From the NCBI GenBank assembly GCA_951406725.2, contig OX597827.1:47306001-47370000 (forward strand): a stretch of 64,000 nt of DNA. The letters run 5' to 3'. Source of the DNA: Octopus vulgaris (Eukaryota). How positions within the stretch are numbered: the stretch's first letter is position 1; every line of letters starts with the position of its first letter. Positions 4,447-64,000 of the stretch are shown here, piece after piece. The translations under genes and the position numbers were made by a program. The notes beneath the pieces are model-generated. The model was not told where the DNA came from and ran no database searches. It saw only the letters and a program-made list of their open reading frames with translations.

Positions 4447-5248
4447 CGTGGTCTGATCAATAAGTGTTCGGATTGTTGCTATAGTAACGAAGCTATAGCA
4501 CACAGAGTGAAGCCGTTTGGCATCACAGACTGACCTTGAGCTGTGCTGTGTATGCGCACTAAGTTTTAATGTTCTAGCTCACTTCCGCTGTTTACAGCAG
4601 TGCTTGGAAGGAAGGTATGTAGTGTGTAGCATGTGATCGTAGTATTGACAAGAAGAAAATTGAGCAGATATTCTGCATCAAATTTTACCAAAAACTTGGC
4701 AATACCTGCTTAGAGGCCTACGCAAGGTTTTCAAAACGTATTCATCGTTTTCGACACAATAAAGGAGAACTTGTGCAATTGAAACCCGAGTGTCCGTTTG
4801 GCACAAACTTGACAGAAACGTGTCTCATACCCAAATCTTCAGTAATAATGGACTTAAGTGCACCGTAACCCATCAGCATATCCGCTGACACCTCATGGAT
4901 GGTGATTCGACGATTTCCCCTCAAAGCTGCACACACATCTGTGATGTTTTTCCTAGTTCTATTGGTTGCGGCTCTCCCAGAACGTTCGTCAATATCGGCA
5001 TTTTCTTCGGCCATCTTGGAAACATCTGAACCACTCGTAGACTTGTGTGCGTCTCATACACTCCTTCCCATAAACTTTCTGCAACTTTGCGCAGTCCATT
5101 GAGCAGGCATCGTCAGGACAAATTTCTCTGTCATGGTCGCTATACAGTTTTCTTCGAAGCACTGCTGTAAACAACGGAAGTAGCTAGAACGTTAAAGCAG
5201 CATGGCTCAGGGTCAATCTTTGTCAAGCGGCTTCGTTACTATGACACA
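4447..5248. mobile_element. Rearranged mariner-like element made of two convergent 5' portions
   Basis: TA then cgtggtctgatcaataagt TIR-like start. Transposase N-terminus on + (EQ.FCIKF.QKLG, ~4660-4740) and on - (LQKVYGKECMRRTQVYEWF...DERSGR...RRITIHEVS...LGMRHVSVKFVP, ~5090-4795). Inverted arms 4474-4609 vs 5152-5248. Confidence 0.8.
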
Positions 5249-10036: not shown

Positions 10037-10339
10037 GCGCAATGGCCTAGTGGTTAGGGCAGCGAACTCGCGGTCGTAGGATCGCGGTTTCGATTCCCAG
10101 ACCGGGCGTTGTGTGTGTTTATTGAGCGAAAACACCTTAAAAAGCTCCACGAGACTCCGGCAGGGGGTGGTGATCCCTGCTGTACTCTTTCACCACAACT
10201 TTCTCTCACTCTTTCTTCTGTTGGCCTGCTCGCTTAGCCAGCGGGGTGGCGTCATTCGAAGGCTAAAAGAATGCGAACGCATTGTGACCAGCGATGTGTA
10301 GCAACATCTGATGGTCTGGTCGGTCACGTGATCACGTGA
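10034..10339 (+). mobile_element. tRNA-derived SINE family A, full length, RTE-type tail (tail 1)
   Basis: Pol III A box tggcctagtgg and B box ggtttcgattcc in a tRNA-like head; tail cattgtgaccagcgatg...tctggtcggtcacgtgatcacgtga is homologous to the RTE LINE end at 51871-51932. Confidence 0.9.
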
Positions 10340-10425
10340 TATATATATATATATATATAAATATATATATCACGTGATCACGTGACCGACCAGACCACCA
10401 GATATATATATATATATATATATAG

Positions 10426-11130: not shown

Positions 11131-11206
<76 letters not shown>

Positions 11207-11207
11207 T

Positions 11208-11779
11208 AATAGTTATCGCCATACTAACATGGCATTCTTATAAAAATAAGAAAAAAGCTGTCCGCTTATTAGCTCCATGAGGCCATCGCCTTAAGTTAGC
11301 TATTTGATACACAAACTGTATCCATATAACCTTCGATCAAGGTTATAACTATTATTTTCCGGGAACGCTGCCGCTGTTCTCTTTTAGAGAGACTTAGTTA
11401 TTTTAATATTTCTATTATTGAAAACAAGTGGATGTGTTCCACCGAAACTAGGTAAATAAAACCATCGAACAGAGATTGTCGGAAGCGACACCTACTGGCT
11501 GGCTACGCTGCATTGAAAAGGGGCAATACTCCGAAACGCGTCTGTAGCTGCCGGTCAAGTAGTGTGGAGCGACTGACCTCCCTTGTTCGAAGGTTATATT
11601 GATACAGTTTGTGTATCAAATAGCTAACTTAAGGCGATGGCCTCATGGAGCTAATAAGCGGACAGCTTTTTTCTTATTTTTATAAGAATGCCATGTTAGT
11701 ATGGCGATAACTATTATTTTCCGGGAACGCTGCCGCTGTTCTCTTTTAGAGAGACTTAGTTATTTTAATATTTCTATTA
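11208..11779 (+). mobile_element. Non-autonomous PLE/retrozyme-like insertion: inverted 5' copy plus 362-nt unit with terminal direct repeat
   Basis: 11208-11342 is the reverse complement of ~11581-11714; 11345-11418 is repeated at 11707-11780 (offset 362); HHR at 11507-11548; (TA)n on both sides. Confidence 0.85.
11507..11548 (+). ncRNA. Type I hammerhead ribozyme, U3-A8 core variant
   Basis: GCTGCA-TTGAAAA-GGGG(CAATA)CTCC-GAAAC-GC-GTC-TGTAGC: 6-bp stem I (one G-U), stem II GGGG/CTCC, palindromic stem III ACGCGT, GUC triplet. Confidence 0.8.
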
Positions 11780-11782
11780 TAT

Positions 11783-11822
<40 letters not shown>

Positions 11823-21423: not shown

Positions 21424-21690
21424 ATTGCGTTTGCACAACTTCCAACGCTGGAGATGTACTACGGTGTCAGCTGTTCACTACCAGTGAACTAAGGTAACAC
21501 TTATTTTTCGAGCACCTTCCGGAGTATTCGAGCGGTTCCAAGCAGTGCTGTTTTCTGCAAGTGCCCCACCCTTATTGCAGCCCCTATATGTTCCATGTAC
21601 TTCTCAAGATTTTTACTCACTGTTCCCAGGGTTCCGACAATTATTAGTACTACTGCTACCTTTTCCATCGACCACAGCTGTTTAACGTTA
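21424..21690 (-). mobile_element. R4/Dong-like non-LTR 3' end, 5'-truncated, in a TAA tract
   Basis: Minus strand VKQLWSMEKVAVLIIVGTLGTVSKNLEKYMEHI...HLQKTALLGTARILRKVLEK*, a short UTR, then (TAA)n. Confidence 0.9.
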
Positions 21691-21713
21691 TTGTTAATAA
21701 TAATATTAATAAT

Positions 21714-21746
<33 letters not shown>

Positions 21747-21850
21747 TATAATGATAATATTAATAATAATAATAATAATAATTATAATGATAATATTAAT
21801 AATAATAATAATAATAATATTAATAATAATAATATTAATAAGGATAATAA

Positions 21851-22055
21851 TCCTTTCTACTAACGGCGCAAAGCCTGAAGTTTTGGCGGAGGGGAGAAGT
21901 CGATCACATTGATCTCAGTACTCAATTGATACTTATTTTTTCAACCCAAAGAACGAAATGGAAAGTCGACTACGACGGGATTTGAACTCAGAACTTAAGG
22001 ACTGATGAAATGCCGCTAAGCACTTTAACCGGTGTGATTCTGTCAGCTCACCGCC
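21851..22055 (-). mobile_element. SINE family C copy, diverged
   Basis: aaagtcgactacgacgggatttgaactcagaac...gccgctaagcac...gctcaccgcc. Confidence 0.7.
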
Positions 22056-30035: not shown

Positions 30036-30483
30036 TTACCACTTTCTCAGTGACAATAGCCATATGGTCAACACAAACTCAGAATAACAGAATACATTAT
30101 AGACAGGAAATGAAGTTACTTCAATAATATAACTGGCTTTATTTATATATTATAGGAGAGAAATAGCTTATTTGTTGATAATATAATCGATATTTGAAAA
30201 CAATATTGATAGGAGAATGAGGAAGAGTCTGCCAGTCGGAGAAAGAAAGAAACGATATAAATATTTGTAGAGAAACTCTTAAAATATGGAAATTATGCCG
30301 ATGCAAGGGAGTTTGTATAAAAGTCGGGAATATATAACCGAAGTTAAGGAAGACAGCTTAAATGTGAATGCAAAGTAATCCAAACATTAAATCGCTAAAA
30401 ATATGAAGTCATAAGGAATTGAAACAGAATGATCTACAAACCCTCGGAGTTGTCTAAGGTAGGTTGGACTGTATATATATATA

Positions 30484-30549
<66 letters not shown>

Positions 30550-30550
30550 T

Positions 30551-31204
30551 ATATGTAAACATAGTAAAAAGGTAATAAAATAAATTATTATTACCGGTGA
30601 TCTAGCACAAAAGACATGTTAGCGATTAGGCTATATGTTATTCATATATAAGTACATTAAGAAGCAAGTACTAGATCACAAAAAGTGGATAAATTCAATG
30701 AAATAGAATCAAAAACGTTTACAAACTCGGCTCATCTTATACTGCAGTTTCGTCTTTTTTAAGCCTTTTAATGTACTTATATATGAATAACATATAGCCT
30801 AATCGCTAACATGTCTTTTGTGCTAGATCACCGGTAATAATAATTTATTTTATTACCTTTTTACTATGTTTACATATTTCTCGATAAATTTTGATCGTAG
30901 ACCCTATACCAGAAAGCCCTCTGTTTGTCGGGTATGTTTTGCGTCTGCGCAATGGTCTTAAAAGTTAGAGAATGCAAGTCGCTAGAACCGCACATGTTTC
31001 TAACGAAATGTACTTCTAGGATAACAAAGGCTGCTTACTGAAGAGTCTAGCCTTGGCAGATAAATTATATTTACTGCTAAAAAAAAGACGAAACTGCAGT
31101 ATAAGATGAGCCGAGATTGTAAACGTTTTTGATTTTATTTCATTAAATTTATCCACTTTTTGTGATCTAGTACTTGCTTCTTCTTTTAGAAGCCTTTTAA
31201 TGTA

Positions 31205-31208
<4 letters not shown>
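30551..31208 (+). mobile_element. Non-autonomous PLE/retrozyme-like insertion: inverted 5' copy plus ~429-nt circularly permuted unit
   Basis: 30551-30660 is inverted at ~30768-30877 and 30661-30760 is inverted at 31081-31180; aagccttttaatgtacttat occurs at 30761 and 31190; HHR at 31034-31105; (TA)n on both sides. Confidence 0.85.
31034..31105 (+). ncRNA. Type I hammerhead ribozyme, canonical core, extended stem II
   Basis: CTTA-CTGAAGA-GTCT-(37 nt incl. TTGGCAG/CTGCTAA)-AGAC-GAAAC-TGCA-GTA-TAAG: perfect stems I and II, palindromic stem III ACTGCAGT. Confidence 0.9.
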
Positions 31209-31256
<48 letters not shown>

Positions 31257-31539
31257 TATCCCTTACCTGAACTCTGAGCAGTAGGTATTGCAGCACTGCG
31301 AATGCCTAACACATTCATAGTAAGAAGAATATCAAGAAAAGCAAATATTACAGAGGATTTAATTTAATTACCATAGGATATTGTTATACAATAATCTTGC
31401 CATCGTTTCGTACATTTCTCTTCTCCGCTTTCTTACTCATGATATCTCGCAGACACACACTCACACACACACACATACTCTCTCTCTCTGAACTATTGAG
31501 ATGTTAATAGTTTATTTTAGTTTTATTTCTACCCTTTCT

Positions 31540-48329: not shown

Positions 48330-49440
48330 AGCAATAACATCGTGCCGCATAGGGAGGTAGTACCGCGAGGACATTTTAGGGCAGATGCTAATCACATGCG
48401 TTATGTCTTCCACAGAAACATGATATAGTCTACACATACGGTTGCACCTTGGGATTACAAGAGCCTCACTGTCTATCTTGTTTACCAGGTATTATGTGTG
48501 ATTCTCCTCTTTCGGGATTGCAAACGCATAGCCTTTCAAGTGTGATGTAATGTAGTGGTCTTGTGTCCAAGAAAAGCTGCACTTCGTGTCAATTGTAATG
48601 TGTTCTTCATGCTTCCGGGCAACATACCAGTTCATGGTCTGCTTTTTGTATGCTGAGTGCTTTCGATTCAAGTTTTCTCTAAGGTAAGGGGGTTCAGTTG
48701 TTTTAGGGCTGTATAGGAGATCATCGGGAAGAGAGCGTTTCTTGAGGAGTTCACTGCCAACTCGTACAATGTTGCTCACTTCACTTTTCAGGACTGCATT
48801 AATATATTTATTTTTGCTGCTGTTGTTTAGCAAGTGCTGCCTGAGTGATATCATACAACATTCGAAGGCCGTCTCCACTGATCTCAGGCCTCTATCACCT
48901 TCGTGTCTTCTTAGGCAGAGCCTGTCAACATCACTGTTTCTGTGGAAGTTCCCTGTTGTTTTCAGGATTTTGTAGGTTTCGATATCTATAGAGTGGATTT
49001 CTTCTACAGACCAATCAAGTACTCCAAGTGCTGGGAACAGCACTGGTACTGCAAATGCATTGTGGGATATTGTTTTGTTGTAAGGGGAGAGTTCTGAGTG
49101 CAATAGTTTCCTAAGTCAGGTGTAATATTCTCGGGTCACTCTATCTTTATTCGCAGTGCCTTCATATGATACATTTTCATCTATGCCTAGGTACTTGTAA
49201 CATTCTTTCTGTGGAATGGAGGTGGGTTGTAGAGAGAACGTTGATGCACAGGTTTTGGGTTTGGGGACTGACTTTCCTCATTCTATTACCAAATACGAAC
49301 ATTCCTTTTGGCCAAATTCCATGCCTATATCAGCTGAAAATGTTATTAATTCCAGTTGTTCTTTGGCATTGTTAAAACTTTTAGCATAAGTCTTCAGGCT
49401 GTCTACAAAGAAATTATGAACTACATTGATATTTCTAGCA
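48330..49440 (-). mobile_element. R4/Dong-like non-LTR reverse transcriptase relic
   Basis: HNFFVDSLKTYAK (YxDD region), DIGMEFG, YKYLGI, then ORF 49103-48492 SELSPYNKTISHNAFAVPVL...FHRNSDVDRLCLRRHEGDRGL; frameshifts and stops. Confidence 0.9.
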
Positions 49441-54775: not shown

Positions 54776-54994
54776 CTGAAATGTACTTGCATAGCAAGTG
54801 ACTTGATTTGAGATTGTGTGCTGATACAAAATCAATTGCAGCGTGAAAGATGTTTATAAGCCATTTAAGAACACACAAAAAAACCGTTAGATTCACTTTA
54901 ACATTTAAATATAATTTGTGTCAAAATATTTTCTTCGTCGCTTGGAAACCACAACCTGTTATCTGAAAAAAAACCTCAGGCTATATATATATAA

Positions 54995-55650
54995 ATCGGG
55001 TCATCCCATAAATAATGTGTTTTTTCAATTGTATGAAGGAGGGGACTGGATAAACTACCTGCGTCAACTTGCTATGGGAATAGGTAGTAATTTTACCTTG
55101 TCGTTATTCTTAGTGCAAATTTGGAAGAGTGCAGTTATTTTTTTTAAAGGTATTATGGAAGTGACAAAGGAGCATATTCGGCATATTTTTCTCTATGAAT
55201 TCAATAAAAGCAACACCGCAGCGGAAGGTGCGAGGTATATTAATGCAGTGTATGTGGATCAGACAATAGCGTAAGCCATTATCAACGGTGGTTCCAAATA
55301 TACATGCAGAGAAGTTTGGATTTAGTCATCCAACCATTCATCGACACCTACATACCGTTGGAAAAGTCTTCAAATTCACCGGTCATTGCCCCATCTGATT
55401 ATCATTTATTCCGCAGTTTTCAAAATAATTTGGACAAAAAATATGAATTCTGCAGACCATGTCAGAAAAATACTGGAGAAGTACTTTTCGTCACGGACAA
55501 GTGAATTTTGGAAGAGGGGGCCTTGCAAGTCTACCAGATAGATGGTAGAGCATTATAGAAGATGAAGAAGAATATGTTTTAGATTTTTTAAAAATTGTTT
55601 ATCTTAATTCTGAAAAGTAAAAGAAGTATGAAAAAACCGCATTATTTTTT
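54995..55650 (+). mobile_element. Internally deleted mariner element
   Basis: Left TIR tcgggtcatcccataaataatg; N-terminus MEVTKEHIRHIFLYEFNK...INAVY; C-terminal SPVIAPSDYHLFRSFQNNL; right subterminal aaaccgcattattt; same family as 15340-15862. Confidence 0.9.
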
Positions 55651-61628: not shown

Positions 61629-62883
61629 GAGGGCCTATCTGAGTAAAATAGGAAACAAGAGGGTCCACAAGTAAAAAATGGTCGAGAACACCTATTCTAG
61701 ATGGTTCTTTTGCCAACAACAACCCATGCTGCTGACACATGTTTAGAGTACTGCCAGAATTGAAAAACAGTCAGCTACTGTCCAGCAATGATGCCTCCAA
61801 AGAAATCCATGTTAAAATCACGGTATAGCAACAGCTTGTTCATGTGAGAGGCCAAGTAACGGACCAATCACGTAACAGATGGATCTGTTACGTGAAATAC
61901 AAATATATATATATATGAATACTTACATATACGAACGTATACATACATAAACACGCACGTAAGCACCCGACCAGTTTAAATTGCCTGCCTAAACTCTTCG
62001 TGCGATATGGTCGAATATATCACCGCAGTGAATATAATGACGAAATAAATATATAAATTTATATAAATAAATATTTATATAAATTTAGATATATATTTGT
62101 AGGTTAGCAGGAGTTTAGCTCGTACTGCGAAAAGGTCATTGAAATTGTTATGCATTTTGATTTTAGTAGCTAGGTATAACATAGTAGTAATTTACTTTCA
62201 TATTCAAAATTTAATGTTTTGAAATAAGCAAAACAACTACATGCCTGACAGTTCATATTGTATGTGATTCTCCATGTAATTCATTTGGACCCTAAATTAC
62301 GTACTTTCTCATCGGCTAAATATATTATTCTCTATTAACTAGGACAAGTGCATTCCTTATATCAATTTTATGCTTCATAATCCCTAGCGTTTTCTACAGG
62401 CAATCGCCGCTCCCCAACTTCATGAATAAGACCCACGTCATATTTAGAACTAGAAATTATTTCAACGTCCAACAACTAGCATTTTCCAAAGCTTCAGAGC
62501 TATTTTGGTACACACTTCTCCCATGTTTGCCACGCATAGAGAATCATATCCAAAAGAGCTACCCGTCTCATTTGCCTGAAAGCACCGACTTTCATTCTTC
62601 GAAGTGTCACCTGCAAACTTTCTTGAGACCGCCTTTTCTTCCAATATACAGTTGCGTAAGTCACTCCGATTTAGCTGGCTTCGTGTCCCCAAAATTAGGA
62701 CGTTAAAATATCAGTCATCTCCCAACAATTATTTATATACATTTTGCTCTTTCGCCAGACCCCACAGTAACAAATTTTCTTGCATATCGGCCTTAAACGA
62801 TCAATTTCCAGGAAACTAAACGTTATCCTTAAAAATCTTACAACCTTAATCTAGCAGCTGTTTATGAGTAACATTAAGAACAT

Positions 62884-63136
62884 CGATCGGTGGGTGCCGC
62901 GGCGTGCATGGAAGCCGCGGGTGCGAGCCGGGTGAAGCCGACCGCCGGTGCAGATCTCGGTGGTAGTGGCAAATATTCGAACGAGACCTTCGAAGACCGA
63001 AGTGGAGAAGGGTTCCGTGCCAACGGCGGTCGAGCACGGGTCAGTCGGTGCTAAGAAACAACAGGTGAAAGCTTCCACGAAAGGCGCCGGATCTGTCGAT
63101 CGAACGAAAACAAAGTTCTGTGAAACCGGGCCGTGC
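62884..63136 (+). pseudogene. Dispersed 28S rRNA fragment
   Basis: ggtgcagatctcggtggtagtggcaaatattcgaacgagaccttcgaagaccgaagtggagaagggttcc...gggtcagtcggtgctaag (62947-63055) matches the conserved eukaryotic LSU core; an isolated GC-rich island with no other rDNA nearby; outer boundaries approximate. Confidence 0.9.
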
Positions 63137-64000
63137 AAACTGTACCCCCAAATCAAAGCATTTAGAAAAGCAGTCACCTGTAATATGTAGTGTTCGAACT
63201 ACTGTCAACAGATTTGATTCTCATCATATTTCCATCCTGTTTTTAGTGAACCGAAGTGAATAAAAAATGTCACAAGTTCCTATACATTTCGACATATACA
63301 CTTTGAAGGTTTCCATAATTCATATTCCAAACATTGTGAAGCAACATGTAGGACGCACCAGGCATACATCACACGTTCTCAAACGCATTTCTGTTTCCAA
63401 AGAAAACAAGAGCAGTCACTCAAACAAAAAGGAAATTACGTAGTTATAGAATCCATGTTAAAAGGAGTCATTGGATTGAGAAAGAAAGGACTTGGGCGAT
63501 ATGATTATTCTTCCCTTATATTTATTGAATTGAGACCAAATTAAAGGGAGTAACTGAAACCACTTTGACATTCTTGACATTTTTCTTTGGATATTAATTT
63601 ATCATCCTATACATACATCTATATATGTGGTTATATATGTGTGTGTGTGTATGTGTGTGTGTGTGTATATATCTATATGCATGTATATATACATATATAT
63701 ACATATATGCACACATATATATATACACAAATATACACACAATTTCTCTATCCATCTTTGTATTTCTCTCTTCTCTCCTTATGTGGGTGTTTGCATATAT
63801 GCAAGCATATATACATACATGTCTGGAAGGATGTGCATTCCCAAACACATGTGTAGACACTTGCGCATGAAAATCTACGTATGTATGTATCTATCTATCA
63901 TTCACTGACGGTATATACATATATATATATCATATATATATATATATATGTATATTTGTGTGTGTAAGTATGCATATATATATATATATATATATATATA

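What the first reader, a model, noticed from the sequence alone, without database searches (positions are those of the whole stretch)
30551..31208. Second inverted-plus-permuted HHR unit whose inverted arm reads across the unit junction
Seen: the forward unit runs A...HHR...B and restarts A (aagccttttaatgtacttat at 30761 and 31190, period 429). The inverted arm 30551-30760, read on the minus strand, runs B directly into A (with a ~17-nt deletion at the join) and continues ~100 nt further into A than the forward copy does. So it cannot be a simple local fold-back of the forward copy's end. Inference: both arms were copied from a circular or tandem template. The sequence is unrelated to 11208-11779, so the architecture recurs in separate families.
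Basis: partly seen in the sequence, partly recalled or inferred. Interest (0 to 1): 0.72.

Follow-up and report, generated by a model that had tools for sequence, protein, structure and literature searches.

The report
Penelope-style two-armed hammerhead retrozyme copy
This is one of a few hundred copies of a non-coding repeat with a predicted self-cutting RNA motif, sitting as two back-to-back arms in a TA microsatellite; the layout is the known footprint of Penelope-type jumping genes and likely means their enzyme copied one repeat RNA twice, once from each side of the cut chromosome.

Summary
In detail: inverted arm 30551-30760, forward arm 30761-31208, period 429, type I hammerhead at 31029-31112; the deletion is 16 nt. 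The 'B-A junction' is not a junction. It is ordinary internal family sequence, and 30761 is simply where this forward arm was 5'-truncated. The family (at least 170 tail-motif matches, no ORF) sits in (TA)n. In 35 of 38 head-to-head insertions exactly one arm ends at a fixed far site and the other ends upstream, mostly about 100 nt earlier. This is the one-sided 'tail' described for Penelope-like elements (PLEs); young autonomous PLEs here do the same. In 7 of 25 loci neither arm can be a copy of the other, yet arms share subfamily alleles (133 of 139 sites). Hammerhead stems covary. Best reading: a non-LTR retrozyme mobilised in trans by a PLE, primed from both cut strands on one template lineage. 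Circle versus linear multimer is unresolved; partner enzyme, RNA and cleavage are not shown. This locus has one whole ribozyme and is probably a dead end. The scan noted this architecture before on other DNA, in this genome and others.

The parts
30470..30550 (.). Left (TA)n target tract; ends ...TATAGATAT next to the element
   Evidence: sequence
30551..30760 (-). Inverted arm, unit positions 321-420 then 8-117; ends at the fixed far (long) end of the family
30551..30650 (-). One-sided tail of about 100 nt (u19-117), missing from the right end of the insertion
30659..30661 (-). Site of the 16-nt deletion, private to this arm
   Evidence: 1 of 95 passages
30729..30760 (-). 3' half of the hammerhead only (GACGAAAC...GUA and the 3' strand of stem I); cannot fold alone
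30749..30765 (.). Head-to-head joint; the 10 nt left of it match the family sequence upstream of u1 at 9 of 10 positions (possible microhomology join, inferred)
   Evidence: family D10
30761..31208 (+). Forward arm, one 429-nt unit plus about 18-22 nt; ends at the near (short) end; two substitutions (u356, u385) not in the inverted arm
30833..30857 (+). Predicted hairpin just upstream of the long end, with paired changes in a few copies; candidate enzyme-recognition signal (inferred)
31029..31112 (+). Type I hammerhead: stem I 31029-37 with 31102-12, core CUGAAGA, extended stem II, GAAA, 2-bp stem III with palindromic UGCA loop; predicted cut after A31101 (GUA)
31190..31208 (+). Terminal direct repeat of 30761-30779 (start of the second round)
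31209..31259 (.). Right (TA)n tract ending ...TATAGATAT; the same GATAT flanks the left end, a possible target-site duplication (unproven)

Best explanation
It is a genomic copy of a 429-nt non-coding repeat with a predicted type I hammerhead ribozyme (a non-LTR retrozyme), likely inserted by the enzyme of an autonomous Penelope-like element that primed reverse transcription from both cut DNA strands. Shown: multicopy family without an ORF, (TA)n targets, head-to-head arms with scattered 5' ends, one arm ending at a fixed far site (u105-117) and the other at an upstream T/A-rich site (mostly u11-22), arms that share subfamily alleles, and covariation in the hammerhead. Inferred steps: (1) rare source copies with two hammerheads in tandem are transcribed and self-cut to a 429-nt monomer, which probably circularises; (2) a PLE RT/GIY-YIG protein binds the structured region 100-205 nt downstream of the ribozyme and cuts both strands of a (TA)n tract; (3) one 3' end starts cDNA at the fixed far site, the other at the upstream site; (4) each cDNA runs back through the unit, often past one full round, and stops at random; (5) the two cDNA ends are joined head to head. 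This locus carries one whole ribozyme, so it would not release a monomer by itself.
For: Family: 990 candidates, 40 scored; 83 hammerhead-pattern matches, 0 in the control, 81 of this family by eye; 170 tail-motif matches, 0 in the control. End rule: of 38 two-arm loci 25 long+short, 10 long+other, 1 long+long, 2 without a long end; expected by independent choice 9.0/19.0/10.0, p 2e-7. Second sample of 40 loci chosen by the tail motif: 16 head-to-head, 10 long+short, 6 long+other, 0 long+long (counted by eye). (TA)4 at both ends in 35 of 38, against 155 of 1422 background windows. Neither arm copyable from the other in 7 of 25. Same template lineage: arms differ at 94 of 5000 sites, tandem rounds at 75 of 2293, loci at 9.1%; diagnostic alleles agree in 133 of 139 arm pairs and 52 of 62 tandem pairs, against 13% between loci; in the second family 10 of 10 loci carry one allele at u186 on both arms, 5 of each. 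Ribozyme: 31037/31102 is A-U in 46, G-C in 11, mismatched in 1 of 58 loci; core positions are invariant or nearly so apart from the free position. Autonomous PLEs in this genome show the same footprint: RT plus GIY-YIG ORFs, a family with 76 of 76 scored copies at 100% protein identity, ends 27 nt apart, 16 long and 13 short in 29 of 30 loci. Literature: inverted copy plus one-sided tail and (TA)n bias (PMC8557442, PMC3846280); purified PAc protein cuts and extends both strands and starts at two internal sites that bound the tail (PMC11167929).
Against: No autonomous partner was identified: no DNA similarity to 45 GIY-YIG loci or 30 copies of a young PLE, and no copy runs into a PLE ORF in the loci tested. 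Cleavage, expression and a circle are not shown. Rfam score is below the gathering threshold; the 31031/31110 pair is mismatched in 11 of 58 loci and 31045/31089 in 12 of 58. Tandem rounds differ more than inverted arms (3.3% against 1.9%; 10 of 62 discordant diagnostic sites), which a linear template with slightly different units would also give. In 7 of 25 loci the short arm is nested in the long arm, as fold-back predicts (11 of 15 in the second family, a sample chosen for long-ended arms). At this locus the deletion coincides with the start of the forward arm, so a local two-step template switch could build it. The tail is about 100 nt, not 30-40. Allele concordance could also reflect one source being expressed at a time, or gene conversion.
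Confidence: 0.7

Rival explanations
1. Same element and enzyme, but the template is a linear uncut multimer transcript (or linear monomers joined by template jumps), not a circle.
For: In vitro PAc uses unprocessed RNA and does not need ribozyme cleavage (PMC11167929). Longest arm is 784 nt, 1.8 units. 10 of 62 diagnostic sites differ between rounds. One locus has a 7-nt deletion in both terminal tails but not in the upstream round.
Against: No array of three or more hammerheads among the 83 exact matches. Subfamilies from 74% to 97% identity all keep arms of 710-790 nt, although purely linear copying can only shorten them. Subfamily alleles occur in both rounds. 83 of 85 read-outs cross the predicted cut site without an indel and 5' ends do not pile up there (4 of 98, 2.5 expected), which argues against jumps between cut monomers. 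Covariation shows the ribozyme fold was kept.
Confidence: 0.35
2. One cDNA folds back and primes on itself (or on an antisense template), and endonuclease cleavage resolves the intermediate and leaves the tail, as proposed earlier for PLEs.
For: Proposed in PMC3846280 (self-priming) and PMC8557442 (tail from EN resolution). 7 of 25 loci are nested and some joints are palindromic. At this locus part A is identical in both arms and the deletion sits at the forward arm's start.
Against: 18 of 25 loci are not nested, and in 7 each arm holds sequence absent from the other. Purified PAc extends both strands from two internal starts.
Confidence: 0.12
3. The arms are truncated pLTR stubs of an autonomous PLE whose ORF-bearing copies were not sampled.
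For: The footprint is that of autonomous PLEs; only the best 40 candidates were scored per search; opposite-strand hammerhead pairs from truncated PLEs are reported (PMC4209133).
Against: Arms longer than one unit return to the same unit, hammerhead to hammerhead, with no ORF between (4 of 59 loci hold two whole hammerheads in tandem). tblastn with two PLE proteins gave only hits separated from the arms.
Confidence: 0.12
4. The locus is a mis-assembly or a palindrome artefact.
For: It lies between two microsatellites; no public contig spans it.
Against: The arms differ by three substitutions and a deletion; 38 plus 16 other loci have the same layout, each with its own joint; contigs of two other runs show the long end running into (TA)n at 30877, and one holds both unique flanks.
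Confidence: 0.02

Closest known systems
Metazoan non-LTR retrozymes (Cervera and de la Pena 2020, PMC7229834; Li, Clavereau and Pollet 2026, bioRxiv 10.64898/2026.07.22.740005)
   Same: Short non-coding unit (429 nt, 33% GC) with one type I hammerhead, partial tandems, many monomer-size copies, autonomous PLEs in the same genome, predicted self-paired circle (z -3.2).
   Different: Mostly under two units and arranged head to head with a one-sided tail in (TA)n. 'Inverted' and 'microsatellite' do not occur in PMC7229834, and I saw no such layout in parts 1-3 of 5 of the preprint. No pLTR relative found. Circular RNA not shown. This copy fails the preprint's two-ribozyme test for an active element.
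Insertions of endonuclease-bearing Penelope-like elements (Penelope/Poseidon, Neptune, Nematis, Naiad; PMC8557442, PMC3846280)
   Same: 5' truncation, partial tandem, adjacent inverted truncated copy, tail at one end only, (TA)n targeting, hammerhead in the repeat.
   Different: No RT/GIY-YIG ORF; tail about 100 nt instead of 30-40; the repeat is the whole element.
PAc (Poseidon, Anolis) in vitro mechanism (PMC11167929)
   Same: Two internal start sites downstream of the hammerhead bound the tail; both target strands are cut and extended; AT-rich targets.
   Different: Here the ends fall at T/A-rich sites that could pair with (TA)n, whereas PAc starts at a site without homology to the target; the genomic one-long-one-short pairing was not reported in the parts I read.
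L1 twin priming (recalled; search listing of PMC2837659 only)
   Same: Two primers from the two sides of one break give an inverted plus a forward segment.
   Different: In L1 the two segments cover adjacent template parts (recalled); here they overlap in unit coordinates and can each exceed one unit.

Membership tests
Non-LTR retrozyme | Type I hammerhead with conserved core | tested here: met
   Core and stems present; core nearly invariant and A-U/G-C covariation in 58 loci; Rfam score below gathering threshold
Non-LTR retrozyme | Short low-GC unit, no ORF, no LTR | tested here: met
   429 nt, 33% GC, slightly above the 170-400 nt range in PMC7229834 and within 51-972 in the preprint; no coding ORF
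Non-LTR retrozyme | Tandem repeats with at least two ribozymes | tested here: inconclusive
   Met in 4 of 59 family loci; not met at this locus; no trimer among 83 exact matches
Non-LTR retrozyme | Self-cleavage and circular RNA | not testable with these tools
   Only contigs of runs not on record as RNA were available
Non-LTR retrozyme | Related to a PLE pLTR | tested here: inconclusive
   No similarity to the 75 PLE loci sampled, a small part of 6136 GIY-YIG candidates
PLE-type insertion | Inverted 5'-truncated copy next to the forward copy | tested here: met
   38 of 59 loci
PLE-type insertion | Tail at one end only | tested here: met
   35 of 38 have exactly one long end; length about 100 nt
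PLE-type insertion | Partial tandem (pseudo-LTR) | tested here: met
   28 of 102 arm pieces longer than one unit
PLE-type insertion | AT-rich or microsatellite target | tested here: met
   35 of 38 with (TA)4 at both ends
PLE-type insertion | Target-site duplication | tested here: inconclusive
   Masked by (TA)n; (TA)k-GATAT on both sides at this locus only
Autonomous PLE | RT plus GIY-YIG ORF | tested here: not met
   None in the unit or contiguous with arms

The most novel reading that the evidence does not exclude
Each two-armed insertion is the fossil of rolling-circle reverse transcription in an animal: a dimeric Penelope enzyme sits on one 429-nt ribozyme-made RNA circle and copies it simultaneously from two start sites, one for each cut DNA strand, which would explain the inverted pLTR, the one-sided tail and the partial tandems of all PLEs by one mechanism and name PLE enzymes as the copiers of viroid-like circles.
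Probability: 0.3. Interest if true: 0.7.

Novelty: new member of a known kind. Interest (0 to 1): 0.38.

Why it matters
That PLE enzymes move animal retrozymes has rested on co-occurrence and pLTR similarity. A retrozyme that carries the PLE insertion footprint itself is more direct evidence. The one-long-one-short rule, with arms that cannot be copies of each other but share alleles, ties the in vitro two-start result for PAc to genomic insertions and argues against fold-back as the general source of inverted pLTRs. A very young autonomous family and a very young retrozyme family in the same genome make the model testable. The locus itself is an ordinary, probably inactive copy, and the scan has noted the pattern on other families.

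Tried and rejected
Expression: no RNA holder listed. Contigs of four runs only guessed to be RNA cover parts of the unit with diverged copies; no evidence either way. Locus check: no contig of four further runs spans the stretch. Partner search: blastn of the unit against 45 GIY-YIG loci and 30 copies of a young PLE gave only short AT-rich hits; tblastn with two PLE proteins against 133 loci plus the window and 40 further loci gave only neighbouring insertions. A Pfam accession recalled for a PLE domain is not in the library. Template jumps at the ribozyme cut site: no indels and no pile-up of 5' ends; one arm ends in (TA)n right at the site, which TA microhomology explains equally well. An apparent shared mosaic between rounds in two loci was an alignment artefact at the joint in the one I could see; that output was cut. 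The microhomology count at joints was unreliable in the older family because of subfamily differences from the reference and is not used. Post-insertion loss of the tail between TATA tracts was rejected as the general cause: the asymmetry is already present in the 99%-identical second family (15 of 17) and in the young autonomous PLE. Covariation in the long stem round the short end was not shown (pairing kept, few changes). Look-up of earlier findings by sequence gave nothing. No tree was built, so 'Neptune/Nematis-type' rests on the cysteine motif only. Supplements were not read; supplementary figures of PMC7229834 and of the preprint may show such layouts.

Full report
Observation. The window comes from a 2.8-Gb, microsatellite-rich genome. 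Between two (TA)n tracts lie an inverted arm (30551-30760) and a forward arm (30761-31208). Taking 30761-31189 as a 429-nt unit, the forward arm is u1-429 plus about 18-22 nt. The inverted arm is u321-420, a 16-nt gap, then u8-117: 110 of 110 identical to 30768-30877 and 99 of 102 to 31081-31182. The second element at 11203-11786 is unrelated in sequence.

Ribozyme. 31029-31112 has the layout of a type I hammerhead: stem I, CUGAAGA, GUC/GAC with an AU-rich extension, GAAA, a 2-bp stem III closed by the palindrome UGCA, and a GUA cut site. Rfam scores it 24.3 bits against a gathering score of 34, because of the long loop II. In 58 of 59 loci with a whole motif the core is invariant or nearly so except the free position (A 46, U 12). 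The innermost stem I pair is A-U in 46, G-C in 11 and mismatched in 1. The pair 31031/31110 is C-G in 39, U-A in 8 and mismatched in 11; 31045/31089 is G-C in 45, G-U in 1 and mismatched in 12. A 14-sequence alignment gives 88.8% paired cells against 34-37% for slid controls; related copies inflate such counts. The short palindromic stem III is the type that is thought to cut as a dimer (PMC4209133, part 1 of 4 read). The inverted arm holds only the 3' half, so this locus has one whole ribozyme.

Family. The unit gave 990 candidates, of which 40 were scored; 83 exact hammerhead-pattern matches and 170 exact tail-motif matches were found, with 0 in reversed controls. I analysed 59 non-redundant loci: 29 of the 30 (one duplicate dropped), 4 new, 13 and 13 (duplicates and one non-member dropped). 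They favour long, well-kept copies. Identity to the window unit runs from 74% to 99%. The B-to-A point is crossed 95 times; only this arm lacks 16 nt, and three passages of an older subfamily lack 11. The 98 5' ends are evenly spread. So the 'junction' is internal sequence, and 30761 is a truncation point.

The end rule. 38 of 59 loci are head-to-head pairs. 25 have one arm ending at u105-117 (long) and one at about u11-22 or a few bases earlier (short); 10 have a long end and another site; 1 has two long ends; 2 have none. Independent choice predicts 9.0, 19.0 and 10.0 loci with two, one and no long ends; observed 1, 35, 2 (p 2e-7). Several of the other ends also abut (TA)n at T-rich sites upstream. 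35 of 38 have (TA)4 at both ends, against 155 of 1422 background windows. In 40 more loci picked by the tail motif, which include an older subfamily, I counted 16 head-to-head pairs: 10 long+short, 6 long+other, none long+long. The unrelated family at 11203-11786 (period 362, 99% identical copies, arms up to 5.7 units) has 15 long+short, 1 long+long and 1 long+other among 17 simple two-arm loci.

What this footprint is. Craig et al. 2021 (PMC8557442, passages) describe PLE insertions as 5'-truncated partial tandems with an adjacent inverted truncated copy, a 30-40 bp tail often at one end only, and (TA)n bias. Arkhipova et al. 2013 (PMC3846280, passages) describe the same and propose self-priming. 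Frangieh et al. 2024 (PMC11167929, parts 1-2 of 4) show that purified PAc protein cuts and extends both strands of AT-rich DNA, starts at two internal sites that bound the tail, is predicted to be a dimer, and does not need ribozyme cleavage in vitro. This genome holds abundant RT plus GIY-YIG elements with a cysteine motif before the nuclease. One family is identical in protein across 76 of 76 scored copies and ends in (TA)n at two sites 27 nt apart, 16 long and 13 short in 29 of 30 loci, with one of each where both arms were seen. None of the sampled PLEs resembles the 429-nt unit, so the partner is unidentified.

Two primings or fold-back. A fold-back of the long arm requires the short arm to be nested in it. 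That holds in 7 of 25 long+short loci. In 7 each arm holds sequence absent from the other, so neither is a copy of the other. In 11, this locus among them, the short arm is the longer one and covers the long arm's positions without containing it as a nested piece. In the second family 11 of 15 are nested, but that sample was chosen for long-ended arms of 442 nt or more. Arms of one locus differ at 1.9% of sites and tandem rounds at 3.3%, against 9.1% between loci. Diagnostic alleles agree in 133 of 139 arm pairs and 52 of 62 tandem pairs, against 13% between loci. In the second family 10 of 10 loci have one allele at u186 on both arms, five of each kind. Both arms thus come from one template lineage: one RNA, or RNAs of one source; gene conversion may contribute.

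Circle or linear multimer. For a circle: arms exceed one unit in 28 of 102 pieces although only 4 of 59 loci have two whole ribozymes in tandem and no trimer is seen among 83 matches; old and young subfamilies all reach 710-790 nt; subfamily alleles occupy both rounds; 83 of 85 read-outs cross the cut site unchanged and 5' ends do not collect there; the unit folds as a circle better than 100 of 100 shuffles (z -3.2, 64% paired); retrozyme circles are shown in mussel, coral and axolotl (PMC7229834, passages and sections 14 and 17). Against: PAc uses uncut RNA, rounds differ more than arms, and arrays may be collapsed in the assembly. I put the circle at about even odds.

This locus. The forward arm ends at the short site and the inverted arm at the long site, as the rule predicts. 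Two of the three substitutions are in the forward arm and one in the inverted arm relative to the family majority. The ten bases left of the joint match the family sequence upstream of u1 at nine positions, a possible microhomology join. The private deletion lies where the forward arm starts, so a local switch (fold back onto B, then jump through the terminal repeat to A) could also make this arm; the family data make that unnecessary but do not exclude it here. GATAT follows (TA)n on both sides, a possible target duplication.

Novelty. Both ingredients are known: non-LTR retrozymes as non-autonomous relatives of PLEs (PMC7229834; bioRxiv 10.64898/2026.07.22.740005, parts 1-3 of 5) and the PLE footprint. 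Four paper searches listed no title or abstract start on the one-long-one-short pairing or on retrozymes with head-to-head arms; supplements and subscription journals were not seen. Earlier notes of this scan, read after I had reached this reading, report the same architecture and end rule for other families in this and other genomes; they are unchecked notes and are not counted as support. Verdict: real, a new member of a known kind, with a useful mechanistic footprint; interest 0.38.

Noticed in passing
window 11203-11786; G000 copies L074-L103: Second, much younger non-coding family (period 362, 99% identical copies, arms up to 5.7 units, tail about 63 nt) with a non-canonical hammerhead-like core; a 79%-identical relative lies in L122. 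A better subject for the circle test than the focal family.
   Followed up: partly
L140, L179-L208 (G000:C14:47995581-47997302 and copies): Extremely young autonomous PLE (775-aa frame in many copies, 76 of 76 scored copies 100% identical in protein, 30321 candidates), in (TA)n with a 27-nt one-sided tail; no canonical hammerhead matched my pattern in L140.
   Followed up: partly
L134-L139, L141: Second abundant PLE family with a 781-aa frame, 46% identical to the first, with a tandemly repetitive 3' region and a further upstream frame of 479 aa in one copy.
   Followed up: no
window 30833-30857 and family copies: Hairpin just before the long end; a 25-nt motif matches exactly in subfamilies 25% diverged (selected that way), and in the unselected sample a few copies show paired changes (U-A to C-G, A-U to G-C). 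Candidate recognition signal.
   Followed up: partly
L164 left flank, L165 left flank, L215 left flank, L025 region (C4:133922377-133924094): Ends of different PLE-type families are stacked through shared (TA)n tracts, suggesting re-insertion into each other's targets.
   Followed up: no
L211, L212, L248: Variant copies with other periods (about 252 and 614 nt between tail motifs).
   Followed up: no
window 62849-63396: Fragment of eukaryotic large-subunit rRNA, over the Rfam gathering score.
   Followed up: no
window 48492-49115, 21501-21914, 4742-5053, 54915-55274: Frames that look by eye like LINE and mariner-type transposon remnants (labels recalled, not tested).
   Followed up: no
window 10308-10402: Short GC-rich inverted repeat around a (TA)n core.
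   Followed up: no
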